Of a stretch of 64,000 nt of DNA, positions 34,756-50,244 are shown piece after piece; the stretch's first letter is position 1, and the number at the start of each line of letters is the position of its first letter. The notes under the pieces are model-generated. The model saw nothing but the letters and a program-made list of their open reading frames with translations. It did not search any database and was not told the origin of the DNA. A program made the position numbers and the translations under genes. This DNA comes from a virus (lineage: Duplodnaviria; Heunggongvirae; Uroviricota; Caudoviricetes), in IMG/VR virus record IMGVR_UViG_2541047680_000004; one strand, written 5' to 3'.

Positions 34756-34831
34756 TGGTGCCGGTTAACGGACTTGAACCGCTGGCCATTCGCTTACAAA
34801 ACGACTGCTCTACCAACTGAGCTAAACCGGC
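34756..34831 (-). tRNA. tRNA-Thr (anticodon UGU)
   Basis: Reverse complement gccggtttagctcagttggtagagc ... ttUGUaa ... ggttcaagtcc ... aaccggcacca; one mismatch at the top of the anticodon stem. Confidence 0.55.
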
Positions 34832-34835
34832 AATT

Positions 34836-34922
34836 TGGTGGGGAGTGATGGAGTCGAACCACCCGAGTCGCCATGACAGTAGATTTACAGTCTACACCGC
34901 TACCTCTACGGACTAACTCCCC
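34836..34922 (-). tRNA. tRNA-Tyr (anticodon GUA), long variable arm
   Basis: Reverse complement ggggagt ... actGUAaatc ... ggttcgactcc ... actccccacca. Confidence 0.6.
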
Positions 34923-34927
34923 TAAAT

Positions 34928-35002
34928 TGGCGATGGTGGGTGGATTCGAACCACCGACCAGTTGGTTAACAGCCAACTGCTCTACCGCTGAGCTACACCA
35001 TC
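34928..35002 (-). tRNA. tRNA-Asn (anticodon GUU)
   Basis: Reverse complement gatggtgtagctcagcggtagagc ... ctGUUaa ... ggttcgaatcc ... caccatcgcca. Confidence 0.65.
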
Positions 35003-47087: not shown

Positions 47088-47107
47088 AAACCCGCCGTAG
47101 CGGGTTT
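47088..47107 (-). terminator. rho-independent terminator (bidirectional hairpin)
   Basis: aaacccgc-cgta-gcgggttt with A6 upstream and T-rich downstream. Confidence 0.6.
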
Positions 47108-47879
47108 ATTGATTCATAGATCGTTTACTCAGAATGTTCACTATATGAGTACAAGCACCTGGGGTGAGATTGATTTTATTAGTCCCCCACTCTTCACGTC
47201 TTCGCATCTGGCCTCCGTCAGACTTACCGATATCCCACGGAATAAAACCACTTACGCCACAGGCATCCTCACCCAATTCCTCTATAAAATTTTCGTTCTT
47301 CGTATCGTAAATTTCGACCAGTCCATGTTTGCGCATACTCACAGCCCAAAGAGTTGCGCCTTTTATCGTCTGTAACGTATCGCAAACCAAGTACTGATAC
47401 TTATCTACGAGATAAAGGTAAGCAAAACTTGCGATGCCTAATCCCATATAATCAGCATGAGTAAAAACCCCTCTAATCTGCTTGGCGCTGACTTTTACTC
47501 CAGATTTATCCTTGATTGGAAACTCGCAGTAGGCCACGCGGAAGACTGTTTGGACTGGCTGCCCCACATGCAACTTGTAGGATTCAATTTCTGCTCCTAT
47601 CTCAAGAGGTGTGTAACCAGCACGTTTGAGTCGCTTAACTTCCTGCTCTTGGTAATCAGGATCACATGACTCAAGACACTCGCCAACAATACAGCGTTCA
47701 TAGGCCGAATCAACAAGCTCGTATTCGGTAAATCGAATTAGATCGAAACCTCGGGAGATAAAATAGAACTCACCGAGAGCGATAATTCTCGTCGCTCTCG
47801 GCATTTCAGACAAGACCTTGCTGTAGTCTTCTATTTCAGGGATTAATCTGTTCGCCTGACCAATTAGAGATGGTGCCAT
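47106..47879 (-). CDS. hypothetical protein
   Basis: 257-aa ORF; no motif recognised. Confidence 0.4.
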   Translation of the reverse strand: MAPSLIGQANRLIPEIEDYSKVLSEMPRATRIIALGEFYFISRGFDLIRFTEYELVDSAYERCIVGECLESCDPDYQEQEVKRLKRAGYTPLEIGAEIESYKLHVGQPVQTVFRVAYCEFPIKDKSGVKVSAKQIRGVFTHADYMGLGIASFAYLYLVDKYQYLVCDTLQTIKGATLWAVSMRKHGLVEIYDTKNENFIEELGEDACGVSGFIPWDIGKSDGGQMRRREEWGTNKINLTPGACTHIVNILSKRSMNQ

Positions 47880-48283
47880 GAAGTATTCTGTGCCGTTGAT
47901 GGTTCCATATCATCGATTTTACAGAATTTCTTCATAAAAGACTCTACAACTTGTTTGATTCGTGAAGAAATATCACGATCTAAACACTTCAAGTCAGGAT
48001 ATTGTTCAGCAACATCTAAAACAAAAGAGGTTCGTTTACCGTTAGCGACAACCTCGGCCAACGGTTTAACCAGTGACGTAGAATTAGAGACCTTTTCGGC
48101 ACGCGCCACATCGCTCTTAAAAGTGACGATGAAGTGCTGGCGGTTAGCTGATTCACGGCACAACATACGTCGCACTTCTACTGCGTCTTCACTGTTGTGA
48201 ATACGCATAGGAAAGCTGTCGATAACCGCAGTATTGGTGCGGATCGTCTGCATAGAACGCGTATTGTCATGATAATTTAGCAT
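47864..48283 (-). CDS. hypothetical protein
   Basis: 139-aa ORF overlapping the downstream gene start. Confidence 0.35.
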   Translation of the reverse strand: MLNYHDNTRSMQTIRTNTAVIDSFPMRIHNSEDAVEVRRMLCRESANRQHFIVTFKSDVARAEKVSNSTSLVKPLAEVVANGKRTSFVLDVAEQYPDLKCLDRDISSRIKQVVESFMKKFCKIDDMEPSTAQNTSWHHL

Positions 48284-48492
48284 ATATCCACCTTAGCCGT
48301 TAACACAAGTGTCATTGCGGCACCCCTCTCGGGGTTGAAGGCTACGAGAATGCGTAGCCTGTATGTGCCCACTTACGTGGATGCCTAATAAATCTACATC
48401 AAATTACTAAATGATTCAACATGAGCTTGAGTGAACAGGCGTGTATATGAGTGAAGATGCCATCTTTAGGATAAAAGGTAAACTGAGATCAA

Positions 48493-48729
48493 TCATCGAC
48501 TCAGTTCAGGTGCCCCCCACTCACACAGCCTTTCACCTATCGTATTGTGGATAAGCAACTGTCGCTCCGTTTCCTCAGTCATAAAATCCTCTCTACTCAC
48601 ATAGATAGGATTTGCAGCATCGCAGAATAGCACGCCTGGAGCCTGCGTCTTAATCACGCACCCATTTATCAAACAGCTCGCGATGAACACCAGAGGCATC
48701 TTTTTGCCGCACTTCATTAACCGTTTCAT
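48493..48729 (-). CDS. o-spanin-like outer-membrane lipoprotein (Rz1-like), overlapping the i-spanin gene
   Basis: Internal start gives MKRLMKCGKKMPLVFIASCLINGC with lipobox; begins inside the 3' end of the upstream Rz-like ORF in another frame. Confidence 0.45.
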   Translation of the reverse strand: MKRLMKCGKKMPLVFIASCLINGCVIKTQAPGVLFCDAANPIYVSREDFMTEETERQLLIHNTIGERLCEWGAPELSR

Positions 48730-48901
48730 TTTTGACATCCACTGTGCTTTGAAGTCGTTTTCTGTCTTCCTGTTTTGCCTTCTCTTCCATTGCTCGTCGC
48801 GCCGCATTCCCGCCCATCGTGTAAGCGCCGACCAGAACGAAAAGAACGGCAGCCAGCGTAATCAAAGCAACTTTTAGCTTTGTCATCAGGCTGCCTAGCA
48901 T
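48650..48901 (-). CDS. i-spanin-like protein (Rz-like)
   Basis: N-terminal TM helix then charged helical periplasmic region; directly downstream of the putative endolysin. Confidence 0.4.
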   Translation of the reverse strand: MLGSLMTKLKVALITLAAVLFVLVGAYTMGGNAARRAMEEKAKQEDRKRLQSTVDVKNETVNEVRQKDASGVHRELFDKWVRD

Positions 48902-48902
48902 A

Positions 48903-49622
48903 TTAGACCATCCCTTTCTGGTGTTTTCTTACCTGCGACCAGGCAATGAATCCTGCCACAACAATAGTGGCAATACCGAAGATGATGCGTACTGTATCCC
49001 CGCTAGAGATATGACCTTGTGCTTTATCCATAGCAGCGGAAACCTGTGGCATAACATCGGCCAGCTGTGCCAGACCAATACCTGCTGTAACAGTTGCGCC
49101 TGCGGTTTCTTTAGTTACAGGAACAGCCTTCACGGTTTTCACCGGCTTAACGACGCCAGCTCGACGCAGACCTTCCTCAATAACTTCTGCCGCATACCAG
49201 GTGTTCAGCGTTTTTAGCGGACCTCGCCCATTCTCATGGCGAATGATTGCCTCAACCAAAGGTCGAAGGATGTCGTAATCATGCAGATCGATGATCATGT
49301 CTGCGGTTACACCAACGGCTTTAGACACCTCATTAATGTAGGCGTCAGTGTTGTTTTCATTCGGCGGTGCCCAACGTTCAATAACTTCACGAATGGTATC
49401 GATACTTGAGCCGTCTTTTGCGCGACGTTTGTCGTGGTAGGTAATTAGAGTCACCGCCAGCGCACGAATCCCCCAAACAGGGTCTTTAAACGTGCAAAAG
49501 CGCGGTTCGTCTGGATTCGCAACCAGACCTTGCCACGGTGATCCTTTATCAAGATTACCGGGGTTATTATTACGAATGCCTCTCGGAGTCTTCATCCTTG
49601 ATCTCCTGTTATTGCAGTCCAT
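48903..49622 (-). CDS. putative lysis protein / peptidoglycan hydrolase with C-terminal membrane anchor
   Basis: Position between holin-like and spanin-like genes; conserved N-terminal GIRNNNPGNL motif; C-terminal hydrophobic helix; catalytic class not established. Confidence 0.3.
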   Translation of the reverse strand: MDCNNRRSRMKTPRGIRNNNPGNLDKGSPWQGLVANPDEPRFCTFKDPVWGIRALAVTLITYHDKRRAKDGSSIDTIREVIERWAPPNENNTDAYINEVSKAVGVTADMIIDLHDYDILRPLVEAIIRHENGRGPLKTLNTWYAAEVIEEGLRRAGVVKPVKTVKAVPVTKETAGATVTAGIGLAQLADVMPQVSAAMDKAQGHISSGDTVRIIFGIATIVVAGFIAWSQVRKHQKGMV

Positions 49623-49944
49623 TTTTTACGCCATACGCGGCTAACCCCAAAAGCAGTGCAGTAATAATGAACGACGTTATTTTAGAAACAATGCCGCCAA
49701 AGAACCCACTGGAGATGGAATCTAACCGGTTAAGGAGTTTGTCCAGATTGGAGTGTTGAATACTATGTTGCGCCGGGGTCATATCACCAAAGTAGGTTTT
49801 CAGCTGATCATTGACCTCTTGGCCAATTTCTTCACGTAGCTCTTTACCTAATTTACCAACAACCTCCCGAGCAACGATCGCGGCAATACGCTCAACTTGC
49901 TCTGTTGTAACGCCCGCCATCTCGTTCGACATATTTTCCTCCAT
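49609..49944 (-). CDS. holin-like small membrane protein
   Basis: 111-aa protein with C-terminal TM segment, first gene of the putative lysis cassette. Confidence 0.35.
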   Translation of the reverse strand: MEENMSNEMAGVTTEQVERIAAIVAREVVGKLGKELREEIGQEVNDQLKTYFGDMTPAQHSIQHSNLDKLLNRLDSISSGFFGGIVSKITSFIITALLLGLAAYGVKNGLQ

Positions 49945-50013: not shown

Positions 50014-50244
50014 TCATTCAGCATTGCAACGGACTGATGAGAAAGCACCTACTCCAACCCATCGCCAGTTATAGATGCTACCCGCTTTGTATAAGGTATA
50101 GTCGTTCACTTTTTTAACAGCATATATGGGTATGACTGTCTCCTGTCCACCAATGATAGCCTCACCATAACATATAGGTGTCGGCAATTTCTGGCAGCCA
50201 GTAAGAGAGAGAACAACAGCTATTGTTAGAAATAATCTTTTCAT
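50014..50244 (-). CDS. small lipoprotein (Llp-like superinfection-exclusion candidate)
   Basis: 76-aa precursor with lipobox LTGC; sits immediately downstream of the tail-fibre genes, as phage T5 llp sits beside its receptor-binding gene. Confidence 0.45.
   Translation of the reverse strand: MKRLFLTIAVVLSLTGCQKLPTPICYGEAIIGGQETVIPIYAVKKVNDYTLYKAGSIYNWRWVGVGAFSSVRCNAE

What the first reader, a model, noticed from the sequence alone, without database searches (positions are those of the whole stretch)
48493..49944. Candidate lysis cassette with overlapped spanin genes and an atypical C-terminally anchored lysis protein
Gene order (holin-like TM protein, 239-aa protein with GIRNNNPGNL N-terminus and C-terminal TM helix, Rz-like i-spanin, Rz1-like lipoprotein starting inside the Rz gene in another frame) matches a Gram-negative lysis cassette. 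However the central protein has no catalytic motif I can assign and a C-terminal rather than N-terminal membrane anchor, which is unusual for endolysins, so the muralytic enzyme may be novel or encoded elsewhere.
Basis: partly seen in the sequence, partly recalled or inferred. Interest (0 to 1): 0.4.

Follow-up and report, generated by a model that had tools for sequence, protein, structure and literature searches.

The report
Known Enc34-type phage lysis cassette
This is the ordinary four-gene lysis module of an SSU5-like phage-plasmid, and its odd C-terminally anchored protein belongs to an already studied endolysin family (Enc34/M4Lys type) whose catalytic domain has a crystal structure.

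Summary
Window 48493..49944, minus strand, carries four tightly packed genes. They encode a 107-aa single-TMD protein, a 230-aa protein with a C-terminal TMD, an 83-aa i-spanin, and a 74-aa lipoprotein o-spanin that starts inside the i-spanin gene in another frame. The DNA is 100% identical to phage-plasmid pECOH89 and 83-95% identical to phages SSU5 and Cyrano, where these genes are annotated holin, endolysin, Rz and Rz1.

The central protein matches the crystallised catalytic domain of the Hafnia phage Enc34 endolysin (PDB 7Q47) at E=1.5e-54 and 64% identity. The proposed catalytic Glu and the Tyr and Trp of that enzyme are invariant here (E121, Y86, W75). The C-terminal two-helix membrane module is the published hallmark of this family (Enc34, M4Lys, Siskin). 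The spanins belong to the catalogued Chi/SSU5/Enc34 family, and overlapped is the commonest spanin architecture. No other lysis genes are annotated in the 100 kb of SSU5 read (of 103.3 kb).

Two points stay open. How the enzyme crosses the inner membrane is unknown in the literature. The 107-aa "holin" belongs to an uncharacterised family (phrog_5093) that heads lysis cassettes with three different endolysin types.

Verdict: already known, low interest.

The parts
49609..49932 (-). First gene of the cassette. 107-aa putative holin or lysis regulator (phrog_5093). It has a long acidic N-terminal helix, an invariant FGD..P..H...H motif, and a single TMD ending 6 residues from the C-terminus. The longest ORF extends to 49944.
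   Evidence: ORF and SD. phrog_5093 8e-69, unknown function. No Pfam or NCBIfam hit. Annotated 'Holin' or 'putative holin' in Cyrano and SSU5. Unrelated to the Chi-like holin (E=16). Relatives head lysis cassettes with three endolysin kinds. AF2 predicts two helices, 10-48 and 53-103.
48903..49595 (-). Enc34/M4Lys-type endolysin, 230 aa. Longest ORF 239 aa, extending to 49622.
   Evidence: phmmer to PDB 7Q47 E=1.5e-54. phrog_873 'endolysin' 6.4e-89. 59% identical over the full length to Chi-like SPN19 endolysin and 94% to SSU5 endolysin. Foldseek of the AF2 model gives 7Q47 as top hit, TM 0.81 normalised to target.
49146..49595 (-). Enzymatically active domain (residues 1-~150), all-helical and lysozyme alpha-lobe-like. 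The proposed catalytic Glu121 codon is at 49233..49235. Tyr86 and Trp75 are also present.
   Evidence: Alignment with the 7Q47 sequence: W75, Y86 and E121 correspond to Enc34 Trp79, Tyr95 and Glu131 (residues named in PMC8943055). They are invariant in 33 homologues of 56-90% identity. pLDDT is 87-97 over residues 41-150.
48906..49145 (-). C-terminal membrane module (residues 151-230). It consists of a conserved VPVTKET linker, an Ala/Gly/Thr-rich amphipathic helix (~166-191), an SSG turn, a hydrophobic TMD (204-220; nt 48936..48986) and a basic tail QVRKHQKGMV (+3).
   Evidence: Hydropathy, charge and hydrophobic moment. AF2 helices 162-170, 176-191 and 199-226 at low to moderate confidence. 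Invariant P159, T161, E163, A167, G174, Q177, P183, A188, S198, A218, Q221. Same module in Chi-like SPN19 and described for Enc34 and M4Lys.
48650..48901 (-). i-spanin (Rz-like), 83 aa. N-terminal TMD (residues ~8-28) and a short charged periplasmic domain.
   Evidence: phrog_1026 'Rz-like spanin' 5.7e-25. Hydropathy. 82% identical to SSU5_028 and 25% to the Chi-like i-spanin, with a conserved C-terminal KW.R..D.
48493..48717 (-). o-spanin (Rz1-like outer-membrane lipoprotein), 74 aa precursor. Alternative starts at 48729 and 48699. Lipobox LING|C, with mature Cys at precursor residue 20. Two further invariant Cys. Overlaps the i-spanin gene by 68 nt (48650..48717) in the +1 frame.
   Evidence: phrog_1275 'Rz-like spanin' 1.4e-25. 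Alignment with SSU5 and SPN19 o-spanins shows invariant G19-C20, C32 and C65. SSU5 is listed in the 'Chi' o-spanin family with Enc34 (PMC6139136). Not annotated in pECOH89.

Best explanation
This is the single late-lysis module of an SSU5-like temperate phage-plasmid. The window is identical here to E. coli plasmid pECOH89. The genes lie directly downstream of the tail-fibre and Cor genes.

Proposed sequence of events:
1. The 107-aa membrane protein accumulates in the inner membrane and controls or executes membrane permeabilisation. This step is inferred.
2. The 230-aa endolysin is held at the inner membrane by its C-terminal module. Its N-terminal PHA02564-type domain uses Glu121, positioned by Tyr86 and Trp75, to cleave the glycan strands of peptidoglycan. 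Activity is shown for the homologues Enc34 ORF39 and M4Lys. M4Lys behaves as an N-acetylglucosaminidase.
3. The C-terminal TMD is needed for the enzyme to reach the wall. In M4Lys and Enc34 only the full-length protein is lytic or toxic, and M4Lys lyses E. coli without holin or Sec. The topological route is not known.
4. My preferred reading is that the enzyme waits on the cytoplasmic face as a tail-anchored protein. It gains access when the membrane is breached, partly through its own TMD.
5. The i-spanin (inner-membrane anchored) and the lipoprotein o-spanin bridge the periplasm. They destroy the outer membrane by fusion once the wall is gone. This follows the established spanin model and is inferred here from homology and signals.
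For: Identity of the element:
- 100% identical to pECOH89 over 2 kb; 391 plasmid records match.
- 95% identical to phage Cyrano and 83% to SSU5, with holin, endolysin, Rz and Rz1 annotations.

Endolysin:
- PDB 7Q47 E=1.5e-54.
- Proposed catalytic residues invariant.
- AF2 model against 7Q47, TM 0.81.
- Experimental muralytic activity and TMD-dependent toxicity or lysis in homologues (PMC8943055; PMC7143992).

Spanins:
- PHROG hits at 1e-25.
- Lipobox Cys aligned with homologues.
- N-terminal TMD.
- SSU5 is catalogued in SpaninDB family 'Chi'.

Only cassette:
- The 100 kb of SSU5 annotation read (of 103.3 kb) has no other endolysin, holin or spanin.

First gene is lysis-associated:
- Its distant relatives precede Enc34-type, Peptidase_M15_3 and phrog_669 endolysins in 8 of 10 contexts examined, counting this one.
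Against: - Nothing was tested experimentally for this exact cassette.
- The 107-aa protein matches no characterised holin family and lacks the usual charged C-terminal tail. It has 6 residues after the TMD, net +1.
- The positive-inside rule favours an N-out topology for the endolysin, because the tail carries +3. The M4Lys authors also predicted N-out. This conflicts with my preferred cytoplasmic tail-anchored waiting state.
- No promoter or terminator consensus delimits the cassette.
- The rest of pECOH89 outside the window was judged only through its relative SSU5, and the last 3.3 kb of SSU5 was not read.
Confidence: 0.9

Rival explanations
1. The endolysin is a self-sufficient holin-endolysin fusion. 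Its C-terminal two-helix module makes the membrane lesion. The 107-aa phrog_5093 protein is then not the hole-former but a timing regulator (antiholin-like or holin partner).
For: - M4Lys alone lyses E. coli. Its TMD is essential and the TMD alone is bacteriostatic.
- The Chi-type upstream gene product did not lyse cells and slightly delayed lysis (PMC7143992).
- In every non-Enc34 cassette that carries a phrog_5093 relative and extends far enough, a second multi-TMD holin-like gene is also present. These are phrog_8226 'holin' in L014 and L015, and 72-91-aa two-TMD proteins after the M15_3 endolysins in L007, L016 and L018.
- In Enc34-type cassettes the only extra TMD-bearing candidate is the endolysin itself.
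- The C-terminal module is conserved as strongly as the enzyme core.
- The conserved residues of phrog_5093 lie in the soluble part (F48, G49, H56, H60), not in the TMD.
Against: - Holin-independent lysis was seen only with strong over-expression, and the Enc34 authors warn it may be an artefact.
- The SSU5-type first gene is unrelated to the Chi-type one, so the M4Lys co-expression result does not transfer.
- Guilt by association cannot tell holin from antiholin.
Confidence: 0.3
2. The 230-aa protein is a virion-associated, cell-wall-penetrating lysin used at infection. PHA02564 is labelled 'virion protein'. The real endolysin would then be elsewhere.
For: The same catalytic domain occurs at the N-terminus or inside tape-measure proteins, internal virion proteins and 'tail injection transglycosylase' proteins. 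Examples are phrog_7182, phrog_2276 and phrog_992, PDB 9VVP core protein Gp29, and Kayfunavirus internal virion protein D.
Against: - Here the domain is a free-standing 230-aa protein with a membrane anchor.
- It sits between the holin-like gene and the spanins, with gaps of 13 nt and 1 nt.
- The full-length architecture is shared with the experimentally lytic M4Lys and Enc34 proteins.
- No other endolysin is annotated in the 100 kb of SSU5 read.
Confidence: 0.04
3. The cassette is a decaying relic in a plasmid that no longer makes phage, so it has no present function.
For: pECOH89-like elements are usually catalogued as non-mobilizable plasmids, and the genes are labelled 'hypothetical protein'.
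Against: - All four ORFs are intact with good ribosome-binding sites for the first two.
- The endolysin is 100% identical to that of the isolated phage PhiR41_1.
- The holin-like protein is 100% identical to that of phage Cyrano.
- Functional residues are conserved across hundreds of plasmids.
Confidence: 0.05

Closest known systems
Hafnia phage Enc34 ORF39 endolysin (PDB 7Q47; PHA02564 family; Cernooka et al. 2022, PMC8943055)
   Same: - 64% identity over the crystallised catalytic domain.
- Same Glu, Tyr and Trp active-site residues.
- Same all-helical fold and C-terminal two-helix membrane domain.
- Same position between a holin-like gene and overlapped spanins.
   Different: - Host replicon is a ~110-kb SSU5-like phage-plasmid rather than a 60-kb Chi-like siphovirus.
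- Two short insertions of Enc34 (after 'WAPP' and after 'HENG') are absent here.
- The upstream holin-like gene is unrelated.
Salmonella phage BSPM4 M4Lys (Bai et al. 2020, PMC7143992) and other Chivirus 'lysis protein A' proteins such as SPN19 gp36
   Same: - Same two-part architecture; 59% identity to SPN19 over the full length, including the TMD module.
- Basic C-terminal tail.
- M4Lys supplies the functional data: N-acetylglucosaminidase activity, TMD-dependent lysis, and lysis independent of holin and Sec.
   Different: - Chi-like cassettes pair it with a 112-aa protein whose TMD is near the N-terminus. Here the partner is a 107-aa protein with a C-terminal TMD (no similarity).
- No experiments exist for the SSU5-type protein.
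SSU5 lysis cassette (SSU5_026-030) and phage Cyrano CYRAN_22-25
   Same: Orthologous genes in the same order. They are 83-95% identical in DNA and are annotated holin, endolysin, Rz and Rz1.
   Different: - Start of the o-spanin is annotated inconsistently: 39, 48 and 76 aa versions.
- In pECOH89 itself the genes are 'hypothetical protein' and the o-spanin is missing from the annotation.
SAR endolysins (P1 Lyz, phage 21 R21) with pinholins
   Same: The enzyme is membrane-tethered before lysis. It can lyse without a large-hole holin when over-expressed.
   Different: - The SAR domain is N-terminal, weakly hydrophobic and Sec-dependent.
- Here the anchor is C-terminal and clearly hydrophobic (KD 2.07).
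- There is no N-terminal signal, and the M4Lys homologue is azide-insensitive.
Two-component spanins of overlapped architecture (P2 LysB/LysC type; SpaninDB, Kongari et al. 2018, PMC6139136)
   Same: - An inner-membrane i-spanin plus a lipoprotein o-spanin.
- The o-spanin gene starts inside the i-spanin gene in the +1 frame and extends beyond it.
- Overlapped is the commonest class, 228 of 528 systems.
   Different: - Very short i-spanin (83 aa, ~55 periplasmic residues) with no Cys.
- The o-spanin has Asn at lipobox position -2.

Membership tests
Enc34/M4Lys-type endolysin (PHA02564 catalytic domain + C-terminal TMD) | Significant sequence similarity to the Enc34 ORF39 catalytic domain | tested here: met
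   phmmer against PDB 7Q47: E=1.5e-54, query residues 10-160 of the 239-aa ORF. 64% identity in the MAFFT alignment.
Enc34/M4Lys-type endolysin (PHA02564 catalytic domain + C-terminal TMD) | Proposed catalytic Glu (Enc34 Glu131) plus conserved Tyr95 and Trp79 | tested here: met
   E121, Y86 and W75 (230-aa numbering) align with these residues. They are invariant in 4-sequence and 33-sequence alignments.
Enc34/M4Lys-type endolysin (PHA02564 catalytic domain + C-terminal TMD) | All-helical fold resembling the alpha-lobe of lysozyme | tested here: met
   AF2 model has pLDDT 87-97 over residues 41-150 and is helical. Foldseek top hit is 7Q47_B, E=8e-16, TM 0.81 normalised to target.
Enc34/M4Lys-type endolysin (PHA02564 catalytic domain + C-terminal TMD) | C-terminal two-helix membrane domain with a basic tail and no N-terminal signal | tested here: met
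   Hydrophobic segment 204-220 (KD 2.07), amphipathic Ala/Gly-rich helix ~166-191, tail +3. Aligns with the SPN19 C-terminus. No N-terminal hydrophobic segment.
Enc34/M4Lys-type endolysin (PHA02564 catalytic domain + C-terminal TMD) | Peptidoglycan-degrading activity, and TMD-dependent lysis when expressed | not testable with these tools
   Shown for Enc34 ORF39deltaC and M4Lys only (PMC8943055, PMC7143992). Needs a turbidity assay and induction experiments.
Two-component spanin, overlapped architecture | i-spanin: N-terminal TMD followed by a charged, helical periplasmic domain | tested here: met
   TMD ~8-28 (KD up to 2.38). phrog_1026 'Rz-like spanin' 5.7e-25.
Two-component spanin, overlapped architecture | o-spanin: lipoprotein signal with lipobox Cys and a short mature periplasmic domain | tested here: met
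   MKCGKK-MPLVFIASCLING|C. The Cys aligns with VSGC of the SSU5 and SPN19 o-spanins. phrog_1275 1.4e-25. No dedicated lipoprotein predictor was available.
Two-component spanin, overlapped architecture | o-spanin gene starts within the i-spanin gene in another frame and ends beyond it | tested here: met
   Start at 48717 against i-spanin stop at 48650 gives a 68-nt overlap in the +1 frame. The o-spanin ends at 48493.
Two-component spanin, overlapped architecture | Outer-membrane disruption required for lysis | not testable with these tools
   Needs spanin-null phenotypes or complementation of lambda Rz/Rz1 amber mutants.
Holin (any characterised class) | Small membrane protein with at least one TMD, encoded next to the endolysin | tested here: met
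   107 aa, one TMD at ~80-101, ending 13 nt upstream of the endolysin start. Relatives lie upstream of endolysins in 8 of 10 contexts, counting this one.
Holin (any characterised class) | Membership of a described holin family | tested here: not met
   No Pfam or NCBIfam hit. phrog_5093 is 'unknown function'. No similarity to the Chi-like holin.
Holin (any characterised class) | Highly charged hydrophilic C-terminal tail after the last TMD | tested here: not met
   Only VKNGLQ follows the TMD, net +1. The charged part is N-terminal instead, net -4.
Holin (any characterised class) | Lethal, triggerable hole formation in the inner membrane | not testable with these tools
   Needs an induction and energy-poison triggering experiment.
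SAR endolysin | N-terminal weakly hydrophobic signal-anchor-release domain | tested here: not met
   No hydrophobic stretch exists in the first 150 residues. The only TMD is C-terminal.

The most novel reading that the evidence does not exclude
Under this reading the 107-aa first gene is not a conventional holin. It belongs to phrog_5093, which has an invariant FGD..P..H...H motif, a tail-anchor-like C-terminal TMD and no characterised member. It would represent a new class of lysis-timing protein that works with whatever membrane-lesion maker the cassette carries. In SSU5-type and Chi-type cassettes that lesion maker would be the endolysin's own conserved C-terminal module, making the endolysin a natural holin-endolysin fusion.
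Probability: 0.25. Interest if true: 0.55.

Novelty: already known. Interest (0 to 1): 0.2.

Why it matters
For the finding as stated it matters little. The cassette, the endolysin family, its structure and the spanin family are all published. Orthologues in SSU5 and Cyrano are already annotated.

The practical value is in annotation:
- In pECOH89 and about 390 related plasmids, many carrying resistance genes such as CTX-M-15, the genes are 'hypothetical protein' and the o-spanin is not called.
- Neither Pfam nor NCBIfam has a model for this widespread catalytic domain. More than 2000 clusters at 90% identity match it.

The scientific residue is a known open question: how does a C-terminally anchored, signal-less endolysin reach the periplasm? 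The phrog_5093 partner family identified here could be a handle on that question.

Tried and rejected
- Pfam-A and NCBIfam scans of all four proteins gave no meaningful hits. The DUF6187, DUF3851, SLATT_1 and TraQ hits are sub-threshold TMD noise.
- The SSU5-type holin was compared with the Chi-type holin and showed no similarity. The M4Lys co-expression data therefore cannot be transferred to it.
- The search for related loci with the phrog_5093 alignment failed because no stretch was conserved enough. The look-up of encoding contigs was used instead.
- The promoter/terminator scan found nothing above the shuffled expectation around the cassette.
- Rfam found only three tRNAs, far from the cassette.
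- The hairpin-rich spacer downstream of the o-spanin folds no better than shuffles (z=-1.85).
- A lambda-like dual-start motif for the holin was considered (M1, M5, M9) and rejected. The SD lies inside codons 2-3, so M5 is the start, and the extension carries no basic residue.
- Cys45 (FIAS|C) was considered as the lipobox and rejected in favour of Cys50 (LING|C), which aligns with the lipobox of homologues.
- SAR-endolysin membership was rejected because there is no N-terminal TMD.
- The AF2 model of the C-terminal module has low confidence (pLDDT 41-75). It does not settle the topology.
Full report
**What is there**

Window 48493..49944 holds four closely packed minus-strand genes.

- Ribosome-binding sites and the annotation of orthologues show that the first two genes start later than the longest ORFs suggest. 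The holin-like gene runs 49932..49609 (107 aa, GGAGG 5 nt upstream). The central gene runs 49595..48903 (230 aa, AGGAG 7 nt upstream).
- The i-spanin gene (48901..48650, 83 aa) starts 1 nt after the endolysin stop.
- The o-spanin gene starts inside the i-spanin gene, most likely at 48717. It is in the +1 frame, overlaps by 68 nt, and ends at 48493.

**Where it comes from**

- The 2-kb region is 100% identical to E. coli plasmid pECOH89 (NC_023916.1) and four other plasmids. It matches 391 plasmid records overall, almost all non-mobilizable.
- It is 95% identical to Escherichia phages Cyrano and PhiR41_1, and 83% identical to Salmonella phage SSU5.
- The window is thus an SSU5-like phage-plasmid.
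- In Cyrano and SSU5 the four genes are annotated holin, endolysin, Rz spanin and Rz1 spanin. In pECOH89 three are 'hypothetical protein' and the o-spanin is not annotated.
- The cassette follows the tail-fibre genes and a Cor exclusion lipoprotein gene (50014..50244; NCBIfam NF047972, 5.7e-23). The arrangement is the same in SSU5.

**The central protein**

- Pfam-A and NCBIfam have no model for it. This explains why no motif could be assigned by eye.
- PHROGs places it in phrog_873 'endolysin' at 6.4e-89.
- phmmer against the PDB hits 7Q47 at E=1.5e-54. 7Q47 is the catalytic domain of the Hafnia phage Enc34 endolysin.
[quoted passage not shown] It reports muralytic activity on outer-membrane-permeabilised E. 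coli, P. aeruginosa and H. alvei. The fold is all-helical and distantly related to the alpha-lobe of lysozyme (GH73/GH23). Glu131 is identified as the equivalent of the catalytic glutamate of its GH73/GH23 structural homologues, and Tyr95 and Trp79 are conserved.
- In the window protein these residues are E121, Y86 and W75. They are invariant against Enc34, SPN19 and SSU5 and in 33 homologues of 56-90% identity.
- An AF2 model has pLDDT 87-97 across residues 41-150. Its best PDB match is 7Q47, TM 0.81 normalised to target.
- The homologue M4Lys of phage BSPM4 (PMC7143992) has N-acetylglucosaminidase activity. It lyses E. coli on its own, is not blocked by azide, and loses lysis when the C-terminal TMD is truncated.

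**The C-terminal anchor**

- The module consists of an Ala/Gly/Thr-rich amphipathic helix (~166-191), an SSG turn, a hydrophobic helix (204-220, KD 2.07) and a +3 tail.
- It aligns with the Chi-like SPN19 protein over its whole length.
- It is strongly conserved, with invariant P159, T161, E163, G174, Q177, P183, S198 and Q221. The module is therefore functional, not a mere tether.

**Distribution**

- More than 2000 clusters at 90% identity match the protein. Those listed with full-length architecture include SSU5-like and pHCM2-like plasmids, Xenorhabdus, Photorhabdus, Pasteurella and Alcaligenaceae.
- In phage genomes, 182 records carry the full-length form, in Chi-like and SSU5-like phages. 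About 600 more carry only the catalytic domain, either as a free endolysin or inside internal virion or tape-measure proteins.

**Is there another lysis cassette?**

The annotation of the 100 kb of SSU5 read (of 103.3 kb) lists no other endolysin, holin or spanin. This was judged on the relative SSU5, not on the part of pECOH89 outside the window.

**Spanins**

- The i-spanin hits phrog_1026 at 5.7e-25 and the o-spanin hits phrog_1275 at 1.4e-25.
- Both are homologous to the Chi-like pair.
- The lipobox Cys (LING|C) aligns with VSGC of SSU5 and SPN19. Two further Cys are invariant.
- The spanin census of Kongari et al. already lists SSU5 in the 'Chi' o-spanin family with Enc34. It reports overlapped as the commonest architecture, 228 of 528 systems (PMC6139136).
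- Nothing here is unusual except the shortness of the i-spanin.

**The first gene**

This is the least understood part.

- It has no Pfam or NCBIfam match and belongs to phrog_5093, 'unknown function'.
- It is unrelated to the Chi-type holin, whose TMD is N-terminal. Among cultured phages it occurs only in SSU5-like genomes.
- An exhaustive HMMER search found 56 representatives at E<1e-3.
- Their alignment shows an invariant F-G...H...H motif (F48, G49, H56, H60) just before a C-terminal TMD.
- AF2 predicts two long helices, 10-48 and 53-103, hinged at the motif.
- Nine relatives were looked up, which with this window makes ten contexts. Endolysins follow in eight of them:

| Endolysin type downstream | Contexts |
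|---|---|
| Enc34-type | this window; L012 (40% identical, followed by a phrog_1026 i-spanin) |
| Peptidase_M15_3 | L007-9, L013, L016/17, L018/19 |
| phrog_669 | L014, L015 |

- This is good guilt-by-association evidence that the family is a lysis protein.
- In the non-Enc34 cassettes that extend far enough, a second multi-TMD holin-like gene is also present. These are phrog_8226 in L014 and L015, and two-TMD 72-91-aa proteins in L007, L016 and L018.
- The family could therefore be a regulator or partner rather than the hole-former. This is the only element of possible novelty, and it is an inference.

**Mechanism**

- Shown by homologues: glycosidase activity of the N-terminal domain, and dependence of in vivo lysis on the C-terminal TMD.
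- Inferred here: cassette expression late in the cycle; membrane tethering of the enzyme; permeabilisation by the 107-aa protein and/or the endolysin's own module; outer-membrane fusion by the spanin pair.
- Topology is unresolved. The TMDs of both proteins end 6-10 residues from the C-terminus, which looks tail-anchored and suggests an N-terminal domain in the cytoplasm. The +3 tail of the endolysin favours N-out, as the M4Lys authors predicted. I lean slightly to a cytoplasmic waiting state, but without strong evidence.

**Verdict**

The 'atypical' enzyme is a member of a published, structurally solved family, and the cassette is the known SSU5-type lysis module. Novelty: already known. Interest: low, about 0.2. 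The uncharacterised phrog_5093 family and the unsolved export route are the only threads worth pulling.

Noticed in passing
window 49609..49932 (-); loci L007-L019: The 107-aa 'holin' belongs to phrog_5093, an uncharacterised family. It has an invariant F-G...H...H motif before a C-terminal TMD. Its metagenomic relatives head lysis cassettes with three unrelated endolysin types, often alongside a second holin-like gene.
   Followed up: partly
window 48906..49145 (-), endolysin residues 151-230: The C-terminal membrane module of the endolysin is conserved about as strongly as the catalytic core. Invariant positions include the VPVTKET linker, P183 in the amphipathic helix, S198-G199 and Q221. 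This suggests a specific function beyond anchoring.
   Followed up: partly
window 50014..50244 (-): A 76-aa lipoprotein matches the phage exclusion lipoprotein Cor (NCBIfam NF047972, 5.7e-23). It lies directly upstream of the lysis cassette and is not in the pECOH89 gene table.
   Followed up: partly
window 48493..48717 (-) and plasmid records: The o-spanin is unannotated, and the other three lysis genes are 'hypothetical protein' in pECOH89 and in most of about 390 related plasmids. Phage records disagree on the o-spanin start (39, 48 or 76 aa).
   Followed up: partly
window 48903..49595 (-): Neither Pfam-A (2025 copy) nor NCBIfam r20 has a model for the Enc34-type catalytic domain. More than 2000 clusters at 90% identity match it, and a crystal structure exists.
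   Followed up: yes
window 34759..35002 (-): Three adjacent tRNA genes were detected by Rfam. SSU5 is annotated with a single tRNA-Asn in the 100 kb that was read.
   Followed up: no
window 48300..48372: A cluster of short GC-rich hairpins (GGCTACG...CGTAGCC, CCCC...GGGG) lies between the o-spanin stop and the next gene, with no T-run. The fold energy is not distinguishable from shuffles (z=-1.85).
   Followed up: partly
window 47106..48283 (-): Two ORFs downstream of the cassette (139 and 257 aa) had no meaningful NCBIfam match, the only library they were scanned against. The corresponding positions in SSU5 (SSU5_031, SSU5_032) are annotated hypothetical. Phage Cyrano instead carries a KacT-type toxin-antitoxin pair here, so this is a variable slot.
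   Followed up: no
L006 36898..37596 (SSU5_101): SSU5 encodes a protein annotated 'lysozyme inhibitor LprI family protein'. Whether it relates to control of the endolysin was not examined.
   Followed up: no
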